Source of the DNA: Patescibacteria group bacterium
Lineage (GTDB): Bacteria > Patescibacteriota > Minisyncoccia > UBA6257 > GWB1-50-10
Length of the DNA: 64,000 nucleotides
Reading direction: 5' to 3'
NCBI GenBank assembly: GCA_040757555.1
Contig: JBFLWN010000002.1
Coordinates: forward strand, 19,116-83,115
The notes beneath the pieces were generated by a model. It was given only the letters and a program-made list of their open reading frames with translations. It made no database searches and was not told where the DNA came from. Positions 48,595 through 57,253 of this stretch are shown in pieces (position 1 is the stretch's first letter; each line of letters begins with the position of its first letter). A program made the translations under genes and the position numbers.

Positions 48595-50202
48595 TTAAAT
48601 AATTTTTGCGCTTTTCAATACTTTCCTTACGGAATATTTATACTGATGATTTTTCTCCAATGCTTTGCGGGCCTGATCTTTCGTGATAAATCCAACGGTC
48701 ACCTCTCGCGCAAGACGGGTTGCATCAGGATGAAATCCGAGCATTCTTCGCGCTTTGCTTTCCGCGGCACGAGCGAAAAGACAGGAATTGGAATTCGATT
48801 CCACCAAATCCTCTCCCCTTGGAATTTTCCATCCGAGTTTTTTTAGAATTTTCTTTGTATCTCCGATTTTTCTCTGAAGAAGAAATGGAAGATGCACCAC
48901 GTACACTGCGGGTCTGTTTTTAAATGGCTGTAATTTTCTTAACGACGAAAAAACAAATTTCTTTGATTCGCTGTTTTGGCTAAGCCCCGCCCATTCATTG
49001 ATGCCAAGTGCAATCACCCGCACTCCATGTTTCACCGCTTCTCCGTAATATGATCGAATAATCACCCGCCTGCACAATTGGCAGGTTCGAATGAATGGAA
49101 TGCGATGTTCACATTTTATGGAATAATGCCTCCGTCCTTCCGTGTACCATTTTCGAAATTTCTCTTTTAATTCGGGAGATTCGCGCTCGTCGTATAAATC
49201 CGCTGTTTTTTGAAAACTTGCGCGATCTGCCGGACGGATATATTTTCTCGCATCAATTTTTTCGTAATCAACTCCCAATTGCGCAGCAACCTGTTTTGCC
49301 CTCTGGGGTATGTGCTTTGGGTAATAGCCGGAATCCAATGAAAACGCGAGAGGAGTAAATCCCATCTTTTTGATTTCATACAACATCGCCGTACTGTCCT
49401 TTCCTCCGGAAATACCCACCATCGCATCATATTTTCCCTTCCCACTCTTTCGTAAAGACAATAAAAGCTTTAATTCTTTCTCAAGTGGCTTTTTGCTAAA
49501 ATTTTGTTTGTACTTTTCGCATACCTCGCAAAAACCCGACTTTCCTATTGCATAGGACAAATTGGCACTTGAGTTGATACATCGCTTACACTCCCGTATT
49601 TCCACCAGCGCCTTCAACTGTGAAATTATTTCCTTCTCTGTGGTAACCGCAGTATTGAATGAGAGATGCGCAATCTTTTCTACTTTGTTTGTGGAAAAAA
49701 GTCGTTCCTCGATTTCTTGCTCTTTTTCCGCGAGTTTCTTTGAAAAGTTTTCCCTCTTTGCGAGTCGGTATGTTGTTTGTGTGTCGGGCGTTTTCAGATA
49801 CACCACAAAATATCCGTTTTTCTTGAAATACAAAGAATTCCGATATCCGCGTATTCCCGCCACAATGGGAAATTTTTGGGGAAAATCTTTTTTGTGGAGA
49901 TATATGATTGTTTTTGCAATAACCGATGAAGAATATTTATTTTTGAGATAGGTGAAAAAATCTCGCGCCTCTTCACGGGAAAAATGTTTTCGAACCGGTT
50001 TCTTATAAATTTTTCCAACCGCCCGGATAAACCCATCTTCTTTCTTCGGTAATTCCGTTAACGTTGATGCGGGATATATCACCAAATGAGATGCCTCGAT
50101 GTGTTTCGCATGAGAAAAATGATGCACAAGTGATTTTGCCAGTGTGGTTTTCCCGGTCCCTGGGGCGCCAAACACGACGATTCCCTTATAATTCCGTTTC
50201 AT
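48595..50202 (-). CDS. fusion protein: N-terminal P-loop kinase-like domain, CxxC-x16-CxxC zinc finger, PP-loop ATP pyrophosphatase domain (TtuA/Ncs6-like arrangement)
   Basis: GAPGTGKTT; CKRC..CEVC; SGGKDS; later C-x9-C-x2-C. Confidence 0.6.
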   Translation of the reverse strand: MKRNYKGIVVFGAPGTGKTTLAKSLVHHFSHAKHIEASHLVIYPASTLTELPKKEDGFIRAVGKIYKKPVRKHFSREEARDFFTYLKNKYSSSVIAKTIIYLHKKDFPQKFPIVAGIRGYRNSLYFKKNGYFVVYLKTPDTQTTYRLAKRENFSKKLAEKEQEIEERLFSTNKVEKIAHLSFNTAVTTEKEIISQLKALVEIRECKRCINSSANLSYAIGKSGFCEVCEKYKQNFSKKPLEKELKLLLSLRKSGKGKYDAMVGISGGKDSTAMLYEIKKMGFTPLAFSLDSGYYPKHIPQRAKQVAAQLGVDYEKIDARKYIRPADRASFQKTADLYDERESPELKEKFRKWYTEGRRHYSIKCEHRIPFIRTCQLCRRVIIRSYYGEAVKHGVRVIALGINEWAGLSQNSESKKFVFSSLRKLQPFKNRPAVYVVHLPFLLQRKIGDTKKILKKLGWKIPRGEDLVESNSNSCLFARAAESKARRMLGFHPDATRLAREVTVGFITKDQARKALEKNHQYKYSVRKVLKSAKII

Positions 50203-50209
50203 ATATTGA

Positions 50210-50479
50210 TTATAGCCCAGAACCTATCAAAACAAGTTTTTTCTTGCGTGACCAACTTTTGATTTCAATTTCCCGTTTTAATGCTTTGCTTTTTGTCTTA
50301 TATTTTTCCGAATAGACGAGCGCCACTGGCCGGCGAGATTTTGTGTATCGCGCTCCACGTTTCGAGGTGTTGTGTTGCCCCACCCGTTTTTTAAGATCGG
50401 TGGTGTATCCCGTATAGAGCGAACTATCCGCGCATTTAAGAATATAAACAAAATGGTTCACAAATTTATTTTTTATCAT
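50210..50479 (-). CDS. GIY-YIG nuclease family protein (UPF0213/YhbQ-like)
   Basis: FVYILKCADSSLYTGYTTDLKKRVGQHN..RRP..LVY..E. Confidence 0.8.
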   Translation of the reverse strand: MIKNKFVNHFVYILKCADSSLYTGYTTDLKKRVGQHNTSKRGARYTKSRRPVALVYSEKYKTKSKALKREIEIKSWSRKKKLVLIGSGL

Positions 50480-50987
50480 TCAACAATTCATGAATGTCGG
50501 CGTTTTTGGAATCATTAATGAGAATCATTTTTTCCTCTTTCATTCCTCCTAGGAGAGAAAATATTTTCGTTTTATTGTCCCTATTCCATCGGTATATCCA
50601 CAAAAGAAACGGAATGCTGAACCTTTCCCCGCCTCCTTCCGGAAGCCCGTGTCTTTTTTCGAGACCAATCACAATTCTCATCATTCGCCTCAACACACGA
50701 TAGAGTTGCACTCTCGTCGGAATATCAATAAAAATGATGCGGTCCGCCCACATTGCTCTTTCGAGAAACAGCACTTTAGTATAATTCCCTTCCGCCACTC
50801 CGACGTCTTTTGATAAAAATTGCTTGCACACTTCCTCCAATTTTTCTTTTTCTTTCTTTTTCCACTGTGGATCCAAAAATAATGCATCCAGATGATACAC
50901 GGGATATCCGGTAGCAAGAGAGATTCTATTTGCCAGTGTGGATTTCCCGGAACCACTTCCCCCTAAAATCATTATTTTTTTATACAT
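50466..50987 (-). CDS. P-loop kinase of the topology-modulation (FlaR)/adenylate-kinase-like family
   Basis: IMILGGSGSGKSTLANRIS..PVYHLDALF. Confidence 0.65.
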   Translation of the reverse strand: MYKKIMILGGSGSGKSTLANRISLATGYPVYHLDALFLDPQWKKKEKEKLEEVCKQFLSKDVGVAEGNYTKVLFLERAMWADRIIFIDIPTRVQLYRVLRRMMRIVIGLEKRHGLPEGGGERFSIPFLLWIYRWNRDNKTKIFSLLGGMKEEKMILINDSKNADIHELLNDKK

Positions 50988-51015
50988 AGAAGTAAAAAAT
51001 ATACATTAAAATCCT

Positions 51016-52125
51016 CTAATAGCCCTTATGTCCAAAATCTTTTAATTCCCTCTTCGCTGTTTTGATGAATTTTCCGAATTGCCGATCTTTTTTCCTTTTT
51101 TCAAAATCACTCATTTCGTAATATTCCGATTCTTTTTTCAGGGTAATATAATTTGAATGTTTTTCTTTATCCAATGTTCCCGAATTCACCGCATCAATAA
51201 CTTTACAGCCGGGTTCTTGAGTATGCGTGCAATTGGTATATTTACAATTTTTGGCCAATTCCGTAATTTCATCGAACGTAGCATTGATTCCCTGATCAAC
51301 GTCGGTGATCCCGACCTCACGTATTCCAGGATTATCAATCACAATCCCCCCGTTTTTGAGAAAATACATCTGCCGAGTTGTAGTGACATGCTTTCCTCTG
51401 CCGGAATATGCGCTGATGTCCCCCGTTTTTATAGATTCCTCGCCGAGAAGTTTATTGATGAGTGAAGATTTTCCCACACCGGATGAGCCGAGAAAACAAT
51501 ATGTGTTGCCCTTCTTAATATATTGTTTCAAATCTTTGAGCCCTTCGTTCTGGATGGTGCTTGTCGGAATAATATCAACGCCCTTAAATCTGTCTTTCAA
51601 CTCTACTATCTTTTCATCCAATCCCTCCTTCGAGAGGAGGTCGATTTTGTTCAATATAATAACAAGTTCCGCACCGCCGTTTTTTACGATGGCGAAATAT
51701 CGTTCAAAGCGATTCAAATTGTAGTCGCGATCAACCGACTCCACCACAAACACAACATCAATATTCGTTGCGATAACCTGCGTTTCGTTTTTCTCCCCAA
51801 TTCTGTTTTTGTCCCCGGATTTTCTCTTGATGATTGTTTTCCTCTCCAATATTCCGCGAATAACCGCCTGTTCTCCATCAAGTTCGGAAATCGCAACCCA
51901 ATCGCCCACAGCAGGATAATCTTCTCTCAAAGAGGCTTTAAACATCTGTTTCCCCGTCACTCTCGCCAGATATTCCCCGTCTGCATTTTTAACTTTATAC
52001 ACTCCTCTGGCCTCAGAAATAACTCGCGCAACCGAAAAATTGCCGAGATCAAGTTTATTTCTACTCGACTCAAAAAATGAGTTGTATCCAAAATCCTTAA
52101 TGTTCATTTTTTCACCTTTTTCCAT
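51016..52125 (-). CDS. rsgA: ribosome small-subunit-dependent GTPase A
   Basis: NKID; GSSGVGKSSLIN; C-terminal zinc CxxC..H..C; OB-fold N-terminus. Confidence 0.85.
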   Translation of the reverse strand: MEKGEKMNIKDFGYNSFFESSRNKLDLGNFSVARVISEARGVYKVKNADGEYLARVTGKQMFKASLREDYPAVGDWVAISELDGEQAVIRGILERKTIIKRKSGDKNRIGEKNETQVIATNIDVVFVVESVDRDYNLNRFERYFAIVKNGGAELVIILNKIDLLSKEGLDEKIVELKDRFKGVDIIPTSTIQNEGLKDLKQYIKKGNTYCFLGSSGVGKSSLINKLLGEESIKTGDISAYSGRGKHVTTTRQMYFLKNGGIVIDNPGIREVGITDVDQGINATFDEITELAKNCKYTNCTHTQEPGCKVIDAVNSGTLDKEKHSNYITLKKESEYYEMSDFEKRKKDRQFGKFIKTAKRELKDFGHKGY

Positions 52126-52202
52126 AGTATTACTAATAACAAACCATTTTATAGTTTATATTAGCACTAATTTTTCGACGAATCTCAAACTTACGTATTT
52201 TA

Positions 52203-52919
52203 CTAAACATCATACTTTTTACGCACTTCCTCTTTCCGTTGAATCTCACCTCTCTCTAAATTTTCAAACACAAATTGAGTGCTCCTTATTGATTCGTCTT
52301 CCAAATGATCCCAGATAGTACTAGATAAATCGAAGTCGTTAGAGAGTTTGTTAAATGTTTGCTGTATCGTTTTGATTAATGCTTCAATTTCATTCGGTAC
52401 GAACGTGCCATTAATAGCTTTCATGTCGGTGTGTGCGAGTTGTTTGTCACGGATGTTTTTTAAATTTGTAATAAGTACTTCATGTGATTTTCGGAGTTGT
52501 TCGATTTGATTAATGGTTTCCTGTTTAATGGGCACATAGTCGTCTTTTATGGCACCAATTTTATCAAGATTTGGATATACGCTTCTGATAATATCCGCCG
52601 TGAACAAACTTTTGTTTTTCTCAATTTTTTTTATTAATCCTACAATGCTCAAGGCTTGCGAGTCTTTGTCAAAGAACTTCATTAAACCAACAATGAAGGT
52701 TTGTAGGTGACTTTGCTCGGTCGGTATGAAAAAATATTTGTAGAGACTCAATAACGCAGCATTTTTCTCGGCCTGTTCTTTTCCGACTTCTGGTATCGAA
52801 CGTGAGAATGTAAGTGTTCTCCAAATATGATACGACTCAACTACAGCAAAAATCTCGTGACTCATTCGGTTAAAGAGTTCTTTTACTTCTATAAATTTCT
52901 GCTTTGCTTTATCGTCCAT
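52203..52919 (-). CDS. hypothetical protein with an HEPN-like Rx5H motif (Abi-like candidate)
   Basis: IRDKQLAHTD near C-terminal helices; AT-rich. Confidence 0.4.
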   Translation of the reverse strand: MDDKAKQKFIEVKELFNRMSHEIFAVVESYHIWRTLTFSRSIPEVGKEQAEKNAALLSLYKYFFIPTEQSHLQTFIVGLMKFFDKDSQALSIVGLIKKIEKNKSLFTADIIRSVYPNLDKIGAIKDDYVPIKQETINQIEQLRKSHEVLITNLKNIRDKQLAHTDMKAINGTFVPNEIEALIKTIQQTFNKLSNDFDLSSTIWDHLEDESIRSTQFVFENLERGEIQRKEEVRKKYDV

Positions 52920-52925
52920 GATTTC

Positions 52926-53546
52926 CTATTGAGTTATTTGAGAAATTTTCCAATCACTAAAATCTCCATTAATCTCAACTTTATGGGTTATTGATTTATC
53001 TCCAAAAGAATTTCGGAACTCCGTTACAGAATAGGAATAGCCGTCTGCTCCCGAATTTAAAAGACCGACACAAAATACCGCCTCAAAATTGTGCCGTTTG
53101 AAAATAGCTTCTCGAATCTTGTTTCTAAAAAACCATCCAGCTCCATCGAAAAACGCAACCAGAATTTTATCCTGCGCATATTCAGGTCCTCTGGCGATTT
53201 TTATGTTTATAGCTTGAATAACTCTATCTTCCCCAGTGGGCAAATTTTTACCTGCTGGTATATCAAGAGCGCAAACATGCTCAGTTGGGAAAAATAATTC
53301 TTTTTCTCTGTCGACAATAAAACCATCTCCTCCAATTACATCTTCCGCAAAAGTTATAAATTTATTTTGCAGATGGCTTAACACAACAGAAATTAACCAG
53401 TTTGCCCACGCTTCCCTGGGAAGCAAATTAAAATTTGCCATTCTTCTTCCGTTCCATAGGTATTTAGGATTTTTCACCATTGGCTCAAAATCCTTAAGTA
53501 CAATCCTTAAATCCTTGATTACATTTATGCTTTTTTTCATACTCAC
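52926..53546 (-). CDS. hypothetical protein (partner of the HEPN-like gene, 6-bp spacing)
   Basis: ORF only. Confidence 0.4.
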   Translation of the reverse strand: MSMKKSINVIKDLRIVLKDFEPMVKNPKYLWNGRRMANFNLLPREAWANWLISVVLSHLQNKFITFAEDVIGGDGFIVDREKELFFPTEHVCALDIPAGKNLPTGEDRVIQAINIKIARGPEYAQDKILVAFFDGAGWFFRNKIREAIFKRHNFEAVFCVGLLNSGADGYSYSVTEFRNSFGDKSITHKVEINGDFSDWKISQITQ

Positions 53547-53615
53547 TTGACGCTCCTTGGGCGGGATAACCTGTCACGACTTTATTTATAGTATACAGAC
53601 ACGCTTTTAGTGTTT

Positions 53616-54071
53616 TTAAAAGTGATAAAGAAAATAATACAATACAGGAAGCTCAAGTAAGAAAGATAAGCCAATTATCGTGGATAAGGTACTTTTTGGT
53701 AGTAATAATCCTGCTTTAGTATAAGATAATTTACCGTTGTAATTTTTTATTTCCCACAACAAGTCTGGAATTCTTAAAATCATGATTACTAGTGCTACTG
53801 CCATGACGCCAATATTCCAAAAATGAAACAGTAAATAAAGATAAACTACAATTAATGTGAGGGAAAAAAAATTAGCTCTCCTATTAGCGCGCTGAGATTC
53901 TTTAATTTGATTTTTAATAAATTCATCACCCTCCGATTTTATTTTGTTAAGTTCCGGATCTGAAAACAAACCCCTTACTAAAAGACCCAATAGATTTACG
54001 CTTAAATATACTAGAACAAAGTAAAATGCTATAGATATTAATATGTGAATAATCATATAAGGCGATTTCAA
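53616..54071 (-). CDS. hypothetical 4-TM membrane protein
   Basis: Hydrophobic helices. Confidence 0.4.
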   Translation of the reverse strand: MKSPYMIIHILISIAFYFVLVYLSVNLLGLLVRGLFSDPELNKIKSEGDEFIKNQIKESQRANRRANFFSLTLIVVYLYLLFHFWNIGVMAVALVIMILRIPDLLWEIKNYNGKLSYTKAGLLLPKSTLSTIIGLSFLLELPVLYYFLYHF

Positions 54072-54077
54072 GTAGTT

Positions 54078-54713
54078 TTATTTTATCATCTGTATGTCTT
54101 TAATCAGAACCGACAAATCACTTCCCTTCTCCCTCACCTTGTCGGTCATAAAATAGATACCTCTATAATATTTTTTAACATAATAATACATTTTTAGATC
54201 GCATGTTAAAATTTTAGCATCTAAAAACACTCCCTCTGTTGCAATATAAAAATCAAGTGGGTGCATTTTAGATATTTTTACATGAGAAAATCTCTTGTAT
54301 TTTTGTATTATCTGTGAAATTTCAAGAGTTCGACTATGCCTACAATCAATCTTTGAAAGAAATTTATCAATTTTTTGTACACATTTTTTGACAGGAATTT
54401 TATTGATTCTAATTAAACGAGAAATTGTCTCAAGATAAACCAGTGCTGGAATATAAAAAGTTGGCTTATAAGGAAGAACTGCCCCCAAAGAAGATGTGGC
54501 TGCAATATAATGAGTATCATTTTCATCTAAGATCGCGATTAACCATGAAGAATCCGGAACTATTTTTAATTTTGGTATGACTTCTTCATTCTCATTCAAA
54601 GGGCTATCTCCGATTCTATTTTGCGCCTCATCTTTTCCTAATGAATCTTGTAAAACTTTTACCTGTTCCAATAGCGAGTTTATTTGTGCATGAAGTTCTT
54701 CAATTGTAGTCAT
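54078..54713 (-). CDS. PIN-domain-like protein with N-terminal coiled coil
   Basis: IVPDSSWLIAIL (hhxD[TS]S start) and ILTCDLK (TxD) near the C-terminus. Confidence 0.4.
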   Translation of the reverse strand: MTTIEELHAQINSLLEQVKVLQDSLGKDEAQNRIGDSPLNENEEVIPKLKIVPDSSWLIAILDENDTHYIAATSSLGAVLPYKPTFYIPALVYLETISRLIRINKIPVKKCVQKIDKFLSKIDCRHSRTLEISQIIQKYKRFSHVKISKMHPLDFYIATEGVFLDAKILTCDLKMYYYVKKYYRGIYFMTDKVREKGSDLSVLIKDIQMIK

Positions 54714-54757
54714 TTTAAAAAAATAAATTCAATCAAACCTATTTTCGAATAGTTAAG

Positions 54758-55471
54758 TTATGTTTTGGGAGTATCTCTCTTTTGAACAGCTTGTTTTGCT
54801 CCATCAGGCAATTCATCATAAAACGCCCTTATTTCTTTTGGTTCTGTTATCATCTTTTCGGCGATAAAATTTAATAGGCCAAATAACTTAACGACACGCG
54901 TGGTATCTTCTTTTAAATCTAATTCTCCAGGATGAACTGCATTGTTCCCCGTAATACGAAGTGCATCTAAAGATTTTTGTATTGTTGGATTTAATCCTTT
55001 TTTAACTAAAGCTGCAATATCGTCATTGATATTTTCCCCCTTTTCTCCAAGTTGAATACAGAGCTTTTGCAATGCCAATCTTAAAATCGCCGCAGCGGAT
55101 CGTGGAGAGTCGTCCAATATATTCGCAGCTTCCAAATAATCAGATTGAATTTCTTCCGAAAGATCGGAATTAGGTTTTTCCACAACGATTTTTTTGGGAA
55201 AAATCATACTGGAATCTTTCCAAACTGAAACATTACTGCAATGTTCGCATATTGAAATAGTCCACGTTTCTGGAAGATTTCCAGTAATCGGCGTTAAATT
55301 TCTAATATTAGAATCATAAACTTGGCCAGAGTATCTGTTTCTGTTTGCTGTTGTATAACAGTCTCCTACCGCGCTTAGGTGTGACCATCGCTGCTTTGCA
55401 AAAACACCACAATGTGGGCAATGGAACTTGCCTTCTGCGTGTTCTGGTGGAAAATGTTCTTCTTTACTCAT
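54758..55471 (-). CDS. zinc-ribbon plus DUF4145-like (HEPN-related) protein
   Basis: CPHCG..CEHC; SAAAILRLALQKL..LDALRITGNNAVH. Confidence 0.5.
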   Translation of the reverse strand: MSKEEHFPPEHAEGKFHCPHCGVFAKQRWSHLSAVGDCYTTANRNRYSGQVYDSNIRNLTPITGNLPETWTISICEHCSNVSVWKDSSMIFPKKIVVEKPNSDLSEEIQSDYLEAANILDDSPRSAAAILRLALQKLCIQLGEKGENINDDIAALVKKGLNPTIQKSLDALRITGNNAVHPGELDLKEDTTRVVKLFGLLNFIAEKMITEPKEIRAFYDELPDGAKQAVQKRDTPKT

Positions 55472-55587
55472 AAGCTGTCATTTTGATTATACTCCTACTC
55501 TATGATTTTATATTAAAACCCCCACACAAATGCGCAAGTGTCTTTATTTGAATTTTTCGCCCTTCGTTGATATGATAGTTTTGCCAT

Positions 55588-55661
55588 TGCGGGATCGTCT
55601 AATGGTAGGACAGCGGACTCTGAATCCGTCAATCTTGGTTCGAATCCAGGTCCCGCAGCCA
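55588..55661 (+). tRNA. tRNA-Gln (anticodon CTG), CCA encoded
   Basis: Acceptor TGCGGGA/TCCCGCA; anticodon stem GCGGA/TCCGT with loop CTCTGAA; T arm TTGGTTCGAATCCAG. Confidence 0.85.
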
Positions 55662-55676
55662 AGTAATATAAATATC

Positions 55677-56111
55677 ATGGACCTAGAGATAGATATAAAG
55701 GGTACTTTTTTAAACATTAAAGTTGTGATTTTGGTCAAAACAAAAAATGGCTTTATTCTTGAAAAAAGTCCAAACGGATATTTTTATTTTGTCGGTGGGA
55801 GGGTAAAAATAAATGAGACATCAGAAGAAGCTGCAAAAAGAGAAATTTTTGAAGAAATAGGCATTAAAATTGAAGAATTGACGTTCAAAACCATAATCGA
55901 AAATTTCTTTACTCTAAAAGAAAATCAGCACGTTCATGAAATCTGTTTTGTTTATACAATCGATCACAAACTAGAGATAAATGATTTAGCGTCAAATTAT
56001 GTAGAGTGTCCAATCACCAACTTTGAAAACACAGACATTAGACCACGCGCCCTAAAAGACTACATTTTAACAAACGACGACAGACCACATATCATCTACA
56101 GGAACCTCTAG
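55677..56111 (+). CDS. Nudix hydrolase (start trimmed so the CDS no longer overlaps the tRNA)
   Basis: Nudix box GGRVKINETSEEAAKREIFEEIGI. Confidence 0.75.
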   Translation: MDLEIDIKGTFLNIKVVILVKTKNGFILEKSPNGYFYFVGGRVKINETSEEAAKREIFEEIGIKIEELTFKTIIENFFTLKENQHVHEICFVYTIDHKLEINDLASNYVECPITNFENTDIRPRALKDYILTNDDRPHIIYRNL

Positions 56112-56124
56112 CCTCTGGAAATAC

Positions 56125-56160
56125 AAAAGCACCACTATGACGCGTCATAGTGGTGCTCAA
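56125..56160. terminator. 12-bp perfect-stem hairpin gcaccactatgacgcgtcatagtggtgc
   Basis: Between convergent genes. Confidence 0.45.
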
Positions 56161-56183
56161 GAAGAAAAACAATTCTCCCCAAC

Positions 56184-56432
56184 TTAAAATTGAAGAACCT
56201 CTAAAACCCTATGTATCACGAGTGCAGGCCACGCGATCGCTTTCAAAACACCTAAAACTCCCATCCAGAAAGTTTCCGAATGTTGTATGAAATATACCAA
56301 TGCGCCGACAAACCCCAAACAATAAATAAAACATCCGGAAGCGCACCCACTCCCGCATTTTTTTGACCCACACTTCGTCAAATCACAGCACTTTGTTTGT
56401 TTTTCTTCTCCCCCGCCTTGTTCGTTAGTCAT
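56184..56432 (-). CDS. small Cys-rich 2-TM protein
   Basis: CCDLTKCGSKKCGSGCASGC followed by TM helices. Confidence 0.45.
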   Translation of the reverse strand: MTNEQGGGEEKQTKCCDLTKCGSKKCGSGCASGCFIYCLGFVGALVYFIQHSETFWMGVLGVLKAIAWPALVIHRVLEVLQF

Positions 56433-56481
56433 GCGTTCATTATATCATAAGAAAAAACGTGCTTCATCAGCACGTTTTATT

Positions 56482-57162
56482 TTATGAAAATACAAAATTT
56501 TCCTCGACCGACACCACAAGATAATCCTTTTCAACTGAAGGAATAATAACAATCTTCTTCCCCCACCGTTCGGCAGTGATACATTCGTTGGCAACAAAAA
56601 GATTCGAGAAGTAGCGACGCGAAAGATAATTTTTCATCGCAGTACGAAAAGATGAAATAATTTCATCTTTTTCTTTTTGATAAAGAAAGATTTTAAATCT
56701 GCTTTTATAATTCATTGCAATAGCATCCTTCGTCGCATTTTCAATCCATTTTTTTTCATCTTGCACTTGATCGTGAAAATCAAATACATCCGAGACCCTC
56801 TTTTTCAATTCCCTCCCGATAGATTCCTTCATTTCCGTACATCCGCTAGGGAGCATAGAAACGAGAGTAGAAAGAGCACACTCTACCTCTTCGTTCGAAT
56901 ACGCTGAAAATGTCCCTAATGCAATACTTTTACACTCATGAAATGATTTTTTCTTCCAATATGGCATATTCTTCGGGAATGTCTTTTCTAACTTCTGGAA
57001 AATACGGCTCACCCCTGTAGCATACGGGGTATTTCTCATTTTTCTCAATTTTAAGAGTGAAATGAGAAATCTTAAAAATGCATTCTGATCAGGTATTTCC
57101 TGTACTTCACGTAAAAAATTAGCGATGGTTTTTTGTAGATTTACCTCTTTCGTCTTTTCCAT
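56482..57162 (-). CDS. hypothetical protein
   Basis: ORF with its own terminator. Confidence 0.45.
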   Translation of the reverse strand: MEKTKEVNLQKTIANFLREVQEIPDQNAFLRFLISLLKLRKMRNTPYATGVSRIFQKLEKTFPKNMPYWKKKSFHECKSIALGTFSAYSNEEVECALSTLVSMLPSGCTEMKESIGRELKKRVSDVFDFHDQVQDEKKWIENATKDAIAMNYKSRFKIFLYQKEKDEIISSFRTAMKNYLSRRYFSNLFVANECITAERWGKKIVIIPSVEKDYLVVSVEENFVFS

Positions 57163-57253
57163 TTTTCCTCCATATTTAAATTTCTAAATAAATAGTGGAA
57201 TATTTCGGTGAGTTTGTCAAACAAAAACCCCACTATCAGCGGGGTTTTATTTT

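What the first reader, a model, noticed from the sequence alone, without database searches (positions are those of the whole stretch)
52203..55587. AT-rich 3.3 kb block between rsgA and tRNA-Gln: candidate abortive-infection or defense island with HEPN-like, PIN-like and DUF4145-like proteins
Five minus-strand genes with no housekeeping assignment sit between the core gene rsgA and tRNA-Gln, in sequence visibly more AT-rich than the flanking core genes. They form three apparent units. The first is a Cys4 zinc-ribbon protein whose C-terminal half carries DUF4145-type signatures (SAAAILRLALQKL ... LDALRITGNNAVH). The second is a PIN-like protein (IVPDSSWLIAIL ... ILTCDLK) 6 bp upstream of a 4-TM membrane protein. 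The third is a 206-aa unknown protein 6 bp upstream of a 238-aa protein carrying an Rx5H HEPN-type motif (IRDKQLAHTD). HEPN and PIN RNase domains combined with a membrane protein recur in abortive-infection and toxin modules. I do not recognise this particular combination as a described system.
Basis: partly seen in the sequence, partly recalled or inferred. Interest (0 to 1): 0.7.

Follow-up and report, generated by a model that had tools for sequence, protein, structure and literature searches.

The report
Mosaic phage-defence island beside tRNA-Gln
The AT-rich block between rsgA and tRNA-Gln in this Patescibacteria genome is a small, swappable anti-phage island built from separately acquired genes: one is a homologue of the recently solved RAZR/PD-T7-4 RNase, and only one gene family in it, a nuclease-like protein that keeps turning up beside HEPN RNases, is undescribed.

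Summary
Five minus-strand genes fill the 3.4 kb between rsgA and tRNA-Gln(CTG), and this is the lowest-GC stretch of the window (34.1% against 37.9%). Four related contigs keep both anchor genes but carry different genes between them.

- **A** (237 aa) is a RAZR/PD-T7-4 homologue (PADLOC E 8e-83; PDB 9y9c E 2e-52). It has the zinc ribbon and the catalytic Arg/His. This system is already characterised.
- **C**, the membrane ORF, is never found beside homologues of B.
- **E** is an AbiU2-family HEPN protein (Pfam E 9e-21; invariant Rx5H).

D's relatives, almost all in candidate phyla radiation (CPR) genomes, sit among defence genes. They lie directly next to AbiU2 genes of four divergent subtypes, next to two other HEPN families, and one is fused to a DUF4209 HEPN protein.

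A and D each recur elsewhere as single-gene blocks at 90-93% nucleotide identity. The block is therefore a mosaic island, not one five-gene system. The D-HEPN link is the only new lead.

The parts
52112..55509 (.). Variable interval (the island) between the conserved rsgA block and the conserved tRNA-Gln block
   Evidence: blastn against L001-L004: homology to rsgA ends at 52097-52111, and homology to the tRNA block starts at 55510-55540. The relatives carry other genes here: HNH + LCM methyltransferase in L001-L003, an APH-like gene in L004. GC is 0.341, the lowest 3.4-kb stretch of the window.
54758..55471 (-). A: RAZR / PD-T7-4 homologue (N-terminal Cys4 zinc ribbon + C-terminal DUF4145 HEPN RNase)
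   Evidence: PADLOC PD-T7-4 E 8.3e-83 over 3-208 of 211 profile positions. Pfam DUF4145 E 1e-15. PDB 9y9c chain OA E 1.8e-52, with R172/H180 aligned to the catalytic R146/H154 of E. coli RAZR. About 24 extra residues lie between the two CxxC knuckles.
54712..55518 (-). Single-gene block carrying A
   Evidence: 93.4% nucleotide identity to L078:229-1037. Homology stops about 47 bp before A's start and at B's start codon, and the flanks in L078 are different.
54078..54713 (-). B: solitary VapC-type PIN-domain RNase with an N-terminal helix (4-27), a disordered linker and a conserved C-terminal extension
53616..54071 (-). C: orphan small membrane ORF (146 aa from the ATG at 54056 in GenBank), about 4 hydrophobic segments
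   Evidence: No hit in Pfam, NCBIfam, PADLOC or PHROGs. Singleton cluster at 90% identity. Absent from every locus holding a B or D homologue. No viral-contig relative.
53547..53582 (-). Conserved 36-nt leader of D (AGTCGTGACAGGTTATCCCGCCCAAGGAGCGTCAAG..., includes a Shine-Dalgarno-like AAGGAG)
   Evidence: Part of the 90% identical block shared with L075/L076. In L075 it starts directly after a direct repeat of the tRNA-Gln 3' end. Its first 26 nt also follow such a repeat in L004.
52926..53546 (-). D: member of an undescribed, mostly CPR family with a probable PD-(D/E)xK-like fold and invariant E45, D74, E89, K116 (206-aa numbering)
52203..52919 (-). E: AbiU2-family HEPN protein, predicted RNase
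   Evidence: Pfam HEPN_AbiU2 E 9.2e-21, covering 11-214 of the protein and 3-190 of 193 profile positions. R157-x5-H163 is invariant in 21 homologues. 69 of the 70 homologues carry PF18734.
55588..55661 (+). tRNA-Gln(CTG), conserved anchor of the hotspot
   Evidence: ARAGORN. 97-99% identical in L001-L004. Its 3' end is repeated next to inserted genes in L075/L076 and L004. In the window only the tRNA's own copy is present.
51016..52125 (-). rsgA, conserved anchor
   Evidence: Pfam RsgA_GTPase E 1.6e-46. 88-93% nucleotide identity in L001-L004.

Best explanation
The rsgA-tRNA-Gln interval of this Patescibacteria MAG is a recombination hotspot. It has collected several independent, horizontally exchanged nuclease genes of the anti-phage / toxin type. 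It is not one five-gene system.

**1. A is a RAZR (PD-T7-4) homologue.** By homology to the E. coli protein, its zinc-ribbon domain would bind a ring-shaped phage protein such as a portal. The protein would assemble around that ring. Its DUF4145/HEPN site (R172/H180) would then cut single-stranded RNA, stopping translation and aborting the infection.

**2. E is a stand-alone AbiU2-family HEPN RNase.** Its Rx5H site is intact, and it probably acts as an abortive-infection effector.

**3. D is a predicted metal-dependent nuclease.** It would be of the PD-(D/E)xK superfamily, in the rare variant where the lysine sits on the second core helix. D is functionally linked to HEPN RNases as an optional partner, giving a DNA-directed nuclease alongside an RNA-directed one. 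This is the HEPN + restriction-endonuclease theme already described by comparative genomics.

**4. B is a VapC-like PIN RNase without a recognisable antitoxin.**

**5. C is an unrelated orphan membrane ORF.**

**Shown:** the family and fold assignments, the catalytic-residue conservation, the variability of the interval, the single-gene block structure, and the D-HEPN adjacency and fusion. **Inferred:** every activity, every trigger and any phage-defence phenotype.
For: **Hotspot.** Four related contigs keep rsgA (88-93% nucleotide identity) and tRNA-Gln (97-99%) but hold different genes between them. The interval is the lowest-GC stretch of the window.

**A.** PADLOC PD-T7-4 E 8e-83. PDB 9y9c (24 chains, 'DUF4145 domain-containing protein') E 1.8e-52, with the catalytic Arg and His aligned. 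The RAZR mechanism is taken from PMC13017515.

**A and D as single-gene blocks.** Window 54712-55518 is 93% identical to L078, which has different flanks. Window 52927-53582 is 90% identical to L075/L076, and that homology ends at D's stop codon.

**E.** Pfam HEPN_AbiU2 E 9e-21 and invariant R157x5H163.

**D-HEPN link.**
- AbiU2 genes occur 6 times in 413 kb of D loci. Each time the gene is directly next to D and never elsewhere in the locus. They fall into four mutually divergent subtypes and occur in both gene orders.
- D lies next to a DUF7380-DUF4209 protein in L007 and is fused to one in P0317. DUF4209 is a HEPN family.
- D lies next to a weak HEPN_RiboL-PSP match in L026.

**Other immediate neighbours of D are defence proteins.** These include PifA, an Old/GajA/AriA-like ATPase, HerA, a Dsr1-like protein, a PD-T7-5-like protein, an MvaI/BcnI endonuclease and a type I S subunit.
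Against: - No activity or phenotype has been tested for any of the five genes.
- 35 of 41 D loci have no AbiU2 neighbour. None of 18 loci with closer relatives of E has D. The pairing is therefore optional and could reflect shared insertion preferences.
- CPR genomes are densely packed, so short same-strand gaps are weak evidence of operons.
- B has no detectable antitoxin, so its control is unexplained. It could be a housekeeping or selfish RNase.
- A's zinc-ribbon domain carries an extra ~24 residues compared with E. coli RAZR. Ring-triggered activation may not carry over to this protein.
- No integrase and no flanking repeats are present in the window itself.
Confidence: 0.72

Rival explanations
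1. D is not a partner of the HEPN gene. It is a free-standing selfish nuclease gene, homing-endonuclease-like or a solitary restriction-type gene, that spreads as a single-gene block and lands in the same tRNA-proximal or defence-island 'sinks' as AbiU2 genes. On this view the D-E adjacency is a by-product.
For: - D moves as a 656-bp block at 90% nucleotide identity whose homology ends exactly at its stop codon, while the neighbouring gene is replaced.
- D is unusually conserved (60-90% amino-acid identity) across CPR classes.
- Most D loci (35 of 41) lack AbiU2, and 18 of 18 loci with E relatives lack D.
- D lies close to a tRNA-Gln gene or its 3'-end sequence in L075, L018, L005 and the window.
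- Small GIY-YIG nuclease genes also come and go in these genomes.
Against: - When AbiU2 is present in a D locus it is always the immediate neighbour. This holds for 4 independent subtypes and never at any other position within 6 kb either side.
- There is a D fusion to a DUF4209 HEPN protein, plus adjacency to two further HEPN families.
- No target-site or intron/intein context typical of homing endonucleases was seen.
Confidence: 0.25
2. D and E form a toxin-antitoxin pair. E is a HEPN RNase toxin, and D neutralises it by binding or by modifying it, as minimal nucleotidyltransferase (MNT) proteins do for HEPN toxins.
For: - The two genes are tightly coupled, with gaps of 4-6 bp in the window and in L075.
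- HEPN toxins commonly have a cognate neutralising partner (PMC3710099).
- The conserved partner stays while the HEPN gene is swapped.
Against: - Relatives of E occur alone in 18 of 18 loci with no recurrent neighbour, so this HEPN subfamily does not need D.
- Most D homologues have no HEPN neighbour.
- D's invariant residues look like a nuclease active site, not an MNT or a DNA-binding antitoxin.
- L. lactis AbiU2 alone was not toxic in E. coli (PMC3985639).
Confidence: 0.1
3. All five genes, or B-C and D-E as the first reader grouped them, act together as one new multi-gene abortive-infection system that combines HEPN, PIN and membrane components.
For: The five genes share a strand and lie close together with short gaps. 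HEPN, PIN and membrane proteins do co-occur in some known systems (general knowledge).
Against: - None of the fetched loci holding a homologue of A, B, D or E repeats the combination.
- A and D recur as separate blocks with different flanks.
- A is a single-gene system in E. coli.
- C has no relative anywhere I could look.
Confidence: 0.04
4. The block is decaying cargo of an old mobile element with no current function: pseudo-functional remnants.
For: - No integrase or attachment-site repeats remain in the window.
- Relatives show short remnants between repeats of the tRNA 3' end.
- The composition is AT-rich.
Against: - All five reading frames are intact.
- Catalytic residues of A, B, D and E are conserved.
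- A and D are 90-93% identical to copies elsewhere with no frame disruption.
Confidence: 0.08

Closest known systems
RAZR (ring-activated zinc-finger RNase), formerly PD-T7-4, of E. coli (Vassallo et al. 2022, PMC9519451; Nature 2026, PMC13017515; PDB 9y9c)
   Same: Protein A shares the full architecture: an N-terminal Cys4 zinc ribbon and a C-terminal DUF4145/HEPN domain. It also shares the R-x7-H catalytic pair (R172/H180 against R146/H154), and the HEPN half aligns well over 165 residues. Both are single genes.
   Different: - The host is a Patescibacteria MAG.
- About 24 extra residues lie between the two zinc knuckles, in the domain that senses the phage protein in E. coli.
- The residues at the E. 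coli dimer-dimer contacts (D179, D180, R184) are E, K and E here. This is my own reading of the alignment.
- The trigger, the oligomeric state and any defence activity are untested.
AbiU2 of the Lactococcus lactis AbiU system / Pfam HEPN_AbiU2 (PF18734; Anantharaman et al. 2013, PMC3710099)
   Same: E matches the family model end to end (E 9e-21) and keeps the HEPN Rx4-6H motif. The paper reports that the family is found in restriction-modification-type operons, which fits a nuclease-like neighbour.
   Different: No AbiU1-like partner is present, and PADLOC gives no hit for E. The neighbour here is D, an undescribed family. The biochemical activity of AbiU2 proteins has not, to my knowledge, been shown.
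VapC toxins of VapBC type II toxin-antitoxin systems (PIN domain, PF01850)
   Different: - No VapB-like antitoxin gene lies upstream in the window or in six other contexts.
- B has an added N-terminal helix, absent from many homologues, and a conserved ~40-residue C-terminal extension.
- The Pfam score is below the curated cut-off.
PA4535 / DUF1780 (PDB 1y0k), a divergent PD-(D/E)xK superfamily protein with the PD-EXX-K active-site variant (Steczkiewicz et al. 2012, PMC3424549)
   Different: Only 15% identity in the structural alignment, and profile searches detect no sequence similarity. DUF1780 is restricted to Pseudomonadales, has a conserved gene context and has no known function. D is mostly in CPR genomes, mobile and linked to defence genes.
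HEPN + restriction-endonuclease-fold combinations (operons and fusions) catalogued by Anantharaman et al. 2013
   Same: D-E, D-DUF4209 and D-RiboL-PSP-like pairs, together with the P0317 fusion, fit the described theme of HEPN RNases coupled to restriction-endonuclease-fold DNases in defence loci.
   Different: The nuclease-like partner is a family not covered by Pfam, NCBIfam, PADLOC or PHROGs. The same conserved partner combines with at least three HEPN families and with swapped AbiU2 subtypes.

Membership tests
RAZR / PD-T7-4 (protein A) | Full-length match to the PD-T7-4 profile and to the solved RAZR chain | tested here: met
   PADLOC PDLC04109 E 8.3e-83, profile positions 3-208 of 211. 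PDB 9y9c_OA E 1.8e-52.
RAZR / PD-T7-4 (protein A) | N-terminal Cys4 zinc-ribbon domain | tested here: met
   C18-x2-C21 and C75-x2-C78 are seen in the sequence. Both knuckles align to the RAZR chain (FHCPHCGV / FNCPHCGV; ICEHCS / TCSHCG). The domain carries a ~24-residue insertion.
RAZR / PD-T7-4 (protein A) | C-terminal DUF4145 HEPN domain with the catalytic Arg and His (R146, H154 in E. coli) | tested here: met
   Pfam DUF4145 E 1e-15. R172 and H180 align to R146 and H154.
RAZR / PD-T7-4 (protein A) | Activation by assembling around phage ring proteins; ssRNA cleavage; abortive infection | not testable with these tools
   Needs biochemistry and phage assays.
HEPN_AbiU2 (protein E) | Match to PF18734 above the curated cut-off over the whole domain | tested here: met
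   74.6 bits against a cut-off of 26.8; profile positions 3-190 of 193.
HEPN_AbiU2 (protein E) | Conserved HEPN Rx4-6H motif | tested here: met
   R157-DKQLA-H163, invariant in 21 homologues.
AbiU two-gene system of L. lactis (AbiU1 + AbiU2) | Presence of an AbiU1-like partner gene | tested here: not met
   No PADLOC hit for D or E at E up to 1. D has no family match at all.
VapC / PIN domain (protein B) | PIN fold | tested here: met
VapC / PIN domain (protein B) | Four conserved acidic active-site residues | tested here: met
   D54, E95, D154 and D172 are invariant in 22 sequences.
VapC / PIN domain (protein B) | Pfam PF01850 match above the gathering score | tested here: not met
   20.2 bits against a cut-off of 23.6 for B itself. 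Many homologues carry a precomputed PF01850 hit.
VapBC type II toxin-antitoxin module (B with a partner) | Adjacent small antitoxin gene (VapB) conserved with the toxin | tested here: not met
   No small ORF lies upstream in the window. Neighbours differ in six other contexts.
PD-(D/E)xK nuclease superfamily (protein D) | Restriction-endonuclease-like alpha-beta-beta-beta-alpha-beta core fold | tested here: inconclusive
PD-(D/E)xK nuclease superfamily (protein D) | Catalytic D ... (D/E)xK signature or a documented variant | tested here: inconclusive
   The canonical ExK is absent: strand 3 reads E89-H90-V91. The family-wide invariant residues E45, D74, E89 and K116 (on helix 2) match the PD-EXX-K variant documented for 1y0k.
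Any described defence system (protein D, protein C) | Match to a PADLOC, Pfam, NCBIfam or PHROGs model | tested here: not met
   No hits for C or D. None of 39 diverse D-family members has a consistent Pfam hit.

The most novel reading that the evidence does not exclude
The D family would be a previously undescribed, largely CPR-specific nuclease module. It would work together with interchangeable HEPN RNases (AbiU2 subtypes, DUF4209, RiboL-PSP-like), and perhaps with other defence effectors. That would make a new two-component anti-phage system in which the nuclease partner is conserved and the HEPN partner is swapped by recombination exactly at the gene junction.
Probability: 0.3. Interest if true: 0.55.

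Novelty: new member of a known kind. Interest (0 to 1): 0.4.

Why it matters
Patescibacteria have tiny genomes and mostly lack CRISPR-Cas (cited in PMC12455944). How they resist phages is therefore largely inferred. This locus shows that such a genome keeps a compact, exchangeable set of single-gene nuclease defences beside a tRNA gene, including a clear homologue of the newly solved RAZR sensor-RNase.

The practical value is modest. The island consists mostly of known kinds. It does give a natural RAZR variant with an altered sensor domain. It also points to one uncharacterised, highly conserved protein family (D) whose repeated pairing and fusion with HEPN RNases is directly testable.

Tried and rejected
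1. **One five-gene system.** Rejected, because no fetched locus repeats the combination and A and D recur as separate blocks.
2. **PIN + membrane protein module.** Rejected. tblastn and blastp with C found nothing beside B homologues in six contexts.
3. **C related to the small membrane ORFs beside D homologues** (L013, L032, and the ~290-aa membrane proteins in L008, L009 and L034). No detectable similarity.
4. **A separate VapB-like ORF in relatives corresponding to B's N-terminal helix.** The 74-aa ORF upstream of B's homologue in L070 shows no similarity.
5. **Classical integrated island with flanking repeats or an integrase in the window.** No significant direct repeats, and no second copy of the tRNA 3' end.
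6. **Phage origin.** No relatives of B, C or D in the viral contig collection. A does match phrog_1305.
7. **Promoter and terminator scan.** Counts were no higher than in shuffled sequence, so it was uninformative.
8. **Sequence-profile links of D to solved structures or Pfam.** Only chance-level hits. Foldseek against the PDB was uninformative. The afdb50 library was unavailable.
9. **A conserved partner for E.** An all-against-all comparison of neighbours in 15 loci found none.


Full report
**Source and observation**

The window comes from a Patescibacteria (CPR) metagenome-assembled genome. Proteins A, B, E and rsgA are identical to GenBank MEW6617057, -56, -53 and -52 on a 148-kb contig. 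C and D match MEW6617055 and -54 once the ATG starts are used.

The interval 52112-55509 has GC 0.341. The window mean is 0.379 (sd 0.015 for windows of that size), and this is the lowest such stretch in the 64 kb.

**The interval is a variable hotspot**

Four contigs encode rsgA proteins from the same 90%-identity cluster. They share rsgA at 88-93% nucleotide identity and the tRNA-Gln block at 97-99%. Between these two anchors, L001-L003 carry an HNH protein and an LCM-type methyltransferase, and L004 carries an APH-like gene. None carries any of the five window genes. The conserved blocks end at about 52097-52111 and 55510-55540.

**Protein A is a RAZR/PD-T7-4 homologue**

- A matches the PADLOC PD-T7-4 model almost end to end (E 8.3e-83).
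- It matches Pfam DUF4145 (E 1e-15).
- It matches the 24-copy chain of PDB 9y9c (E 1.8e-52).

PD-T7-4 was found by functional selection in E. coli (PMC9519451). It was renamed RAZR in a 2026 Nature paper (PMC13017515). That paper reports four things:
- The N-terminal zinc-finger domain senses ring-shaped phage proteins: Gp77 of SECphi27 and the portal proteins of T3, T7 and SECphi18.
- RAZR assembles as a 24-mer around the Gp77 ring.
- The DUF4145 domain is a divergent HEPN RNase with catalytic R146 and H154.
- The activated protein cleaves single-stranded RNA, inhibits translation and causes abortive infection.

In the alignment, A's R172 and H180 sit on R146 and H154, and both CxxC knuckles align. 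A has about 24 extra residues between the knuckles, inside the sensor domain. This part of the finding is a known system in a new host.

A also behaves as a single-gene block. Window 54712-55518 is 93% identical to a 1.6-kb contig (L078) whose flanks are unrelated. The homology ends at B's start codon.

**Protein B is a solitary VapC-type PIN protein**

Pfam PIN scores just below its cut-off (E 1e-3). The other evidence is clear:
- 41 homologues were found. Those that carry a taxon name are Patescibacteria MAGs, and many have a precomputed PF01850 hit.
- D54, E95, D154 and D172 are invariant.

I examined six distinct genomic contexts of B homologues. The neighbours were:
- a DpnI-like gene and a GIY-YIG gene;
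- leucyl-tRNA synthetase;
- the suf operon;
- a methyltransferase + HNH pair;
- a methyltransferase + EcoO109I-like endonuclease pair;
- a GIY-YIG gene upstream and an NYN gene downstream, with a ParE-like toxin gene further along (L072).

There is no shared upstream antitoxin-like ORF, and no relative of C.

**Protein C is an orphan**

C has no hit in any HMM library. It is a singleton cluster at 90% identity. It was not found in any fetched locus or in viral contigs.

**Protein E is an AbiU2-family HEPN protein**

Pfam HEPN_AbiU2 matches with E 9.2e-21 over the whole domain. R157-x5-H163 is invariant in its relatives. Of the 70 homologues, 69 carry PF18734.

In 18 metagenome loci with E relatives (42-73% identity) there is no D homologue. 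In the 15 of these with enough flank to examine, there is no recurrent neighbour of any kind. This HEPN subfamily can evidently stand alone. PADLOC gives no hit for E, and there is no AbiU1-like partner.

**Protein D belongs to an undescribed family**

D has no match in Pfam, NCBIfam, PADLOC or PHROGs. None of 39 diverse family members has a consistent Pfam hit. The family is real and well conserved:
- 224 homologues in the word-indexed search;
- 289 representative clusters at E 1e-3 or better in the exhaustive search;
- 38 loci among GTDB species genomes, 34 of them labelled as CPR lineages.

*Active site.* Across 39 members at 24-68% identity, the only invariant polar residues are E45, D74, E89 and K116 in 206-aa numbering. 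K116 lies on the second core helix. Steczkiewicz et al. (PMC3424549) describe exactly this arrangement for PA4535: the lysine has moved to the second core helix, giving the motif PD-EXX-K. The fold match and the invariant residues are two separate lines of evidence, and both point to the same unusual variant. I therefore read D as a probable active PD-(D/E)xK-type nuclease, with moderate confidence.

**D keeps company with defence genes, and specifically with HEPN RNases**

Immediate same-strand neighbours of D homologues include:
- PifA (E 6e-85);
- an Old/GajA/AriA-like ATPase;
- HerA (E 1e-170);
- a Dsr1-like protein;
- a PD-T7-5/PD-T7-1-like protein;
- MvaI/BcnI endonucleases;
- a type I specificity subunit;
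- RecQ.

AbiU2-family genes occur six times in 413 kb of D loci (five distinct loci plus a duplicate contig), in addition to the window. Every time the gene is directly next to D and never at any other position in the locus. They fall into four mutually divergent subtypes, and both gene orders occur.

The closest D homologue is 91% identical in protein and 90% in DNA (L075/L076). Its DNA homology to the window stops at D's stop codon. Four base pairs later comes a 223-aa AbiU2 protein that aligns to E only over 96 residues at 25% identity. The nuclease-like gene has stayed while the HEPN gene was exchanged.

Three more HEPN links were found:
- D is followed by a DUF7380-DUF4209 protein in L007 (PADLOC PDC-S39; it carries an RNNFAH motif).
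- D is fused to the C-terminus of such a protein in P0317. DUF4209 is a HEPN family according to PMC3710099.
- In L026 the upstream neighbour gives a weak HEPN_RiboL-PSP hit.

A functional link between D and HEPN RNases is therefore likely, but it is optional. That same paper already catalogues HEPN domains fused to, or in operons with, restriction-endonuclease-fold nucleases. The D-E pair is thus a new instance of a described theme, built with an undescribed nuclease family.

**Link to tRNA-Gln**

- **L075:** D lies on the 3' side of a tRNA-Gln(CTG). It is separated from the tRNA by two short segments, each ending in a direct repeat of the tRNA's 3' end (CCAGGTCCCGCAGC). The 36-nt leader shared with the window starts right after the second repeat.
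- **L018:** D starts about 100 bp after a tRNA-Gln(TTG).
- **L005:** a tRNA-Gln 3' end lies 135 bp before D.
- **L004:** a repeat of the tRNA 3' end, followed by the first 26 nt of the same leader, precedes an acetyltransferase gene. An inverted copy of the repeat sits immediately before the APH-like gene on the rsgA side.
- **Window:** only the tRNA's own copy remains, and there are no flanking repeats.

These are the marks of repeated site-specific insertion at tRNA-Gln followed by decay and rearrangement. I did not reconstruct the history.

**Verdict**

The finding is real, and its family-level guesses were good. The island is a mosaic of independent nuclease genes of known kinds. One of them is already mechanistically characterised elsewhere (RAZR), and the proposed PIN-membrane unit does not hold. 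The one new lead is the D family and its repeated pairing, partner swapping and fusion with HEPN RNases.

All functions are inferred from homology, fold prediction and gene context. Nothing here tests activity or phage defence.

Noticed in passing
L075:5589-5960 (also L076); L004:5250-5660; window 53547-53582: Direct repeats of the tRNA-Gln 3' end (CCAGGTCCCGCAGC) lie downstream of the tRNA in L075/L076 (two copies) and in L004 (one copy with one mismatch). Each is followed by a shared leader, AGTCGTGAYAGRTTATCYCGCYCRAG, which in the window sits in front of D on the other side of the tRNA and in inverted orientation. L004 also has an inverted copy of the repeat directly before the APH-like gene. 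This suggests serial site-specific insertions at tRNA-Gln and an inversion. No integrase was seen.
   Followed up: partly
window 50466-51005 and L001:4034-5763, L003:4034-5275: The other side of rsgA also varies. The window has a 173-aa P-loop kinase-like gene there. L001 and L003 have a 153-aa ORF and a methyltransferase instead, and L001 has a GGACT-family gene as well. No GIY-YIG gene is called in L003, although the blastn match extends through window 50210-50471.
   Followed up: partly
window 55665-57240: The region on the 3' side of tRNA-Gln holds a NUDIX protein, an 82-aa Cys-rich membrane ORF and a 226-aa ORF with no family. It is largely not conserved in L004, which has an acetyltransferase and a 281-aa ORF there. 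Only window 56121-56458 finds a 74% identical stretch in L004.
   Followed up: no
L008:6596-7474, L034:2804-3682, L009:4955-5974: A roughly 290-aa protein with two C-terminal hydrophobic segments recurs directly next to D homologues in three loci (79% identity between the L008 and L009 copies). It has no Pfam or PADLOC match. Small unrelated membrane ORFs also follow D in L013 and in L032/L033.
   Followed up: partly
P0267 (376 aa) and L075:7401-8201: One D-family representative is fused to an N-terminal histidine-phosphatase (His_Phos_1) domain. A His_Phos_1 gene also lies just beyond the D-AbiU2 pair in L075. This could be a real association or a gene-calling read-through.
   Followed up: no
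P0177 (homologue of E, 66% identity): One close homologue of the AbiU2 protein E is annotated in a 'Nanoarchaeota archaeon' MAG (4.3-kb contig). This is either transfer between CPR bacteria and DPANN archaea or a binning error.
   Followed up: no
window 48595-50202: A 535-aa protein conserved in the relatives combines an N-terminal P-loop kinase-like domain with a PP-loop ATPase-like region (weak QueC and NAD_synthase hits). It has no clear family assignment.
   Followed up: no
L019, L027, L026, L041: Four D-family loci come from MAGs labelled Gammaproteobacteria (two), Bdellovibrionales and Alphaproteobacteria. They may be transfers out of CPR genomes or mis-binned contigs. In L019, D is followed by a PifA homologue.
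   Followed up: no
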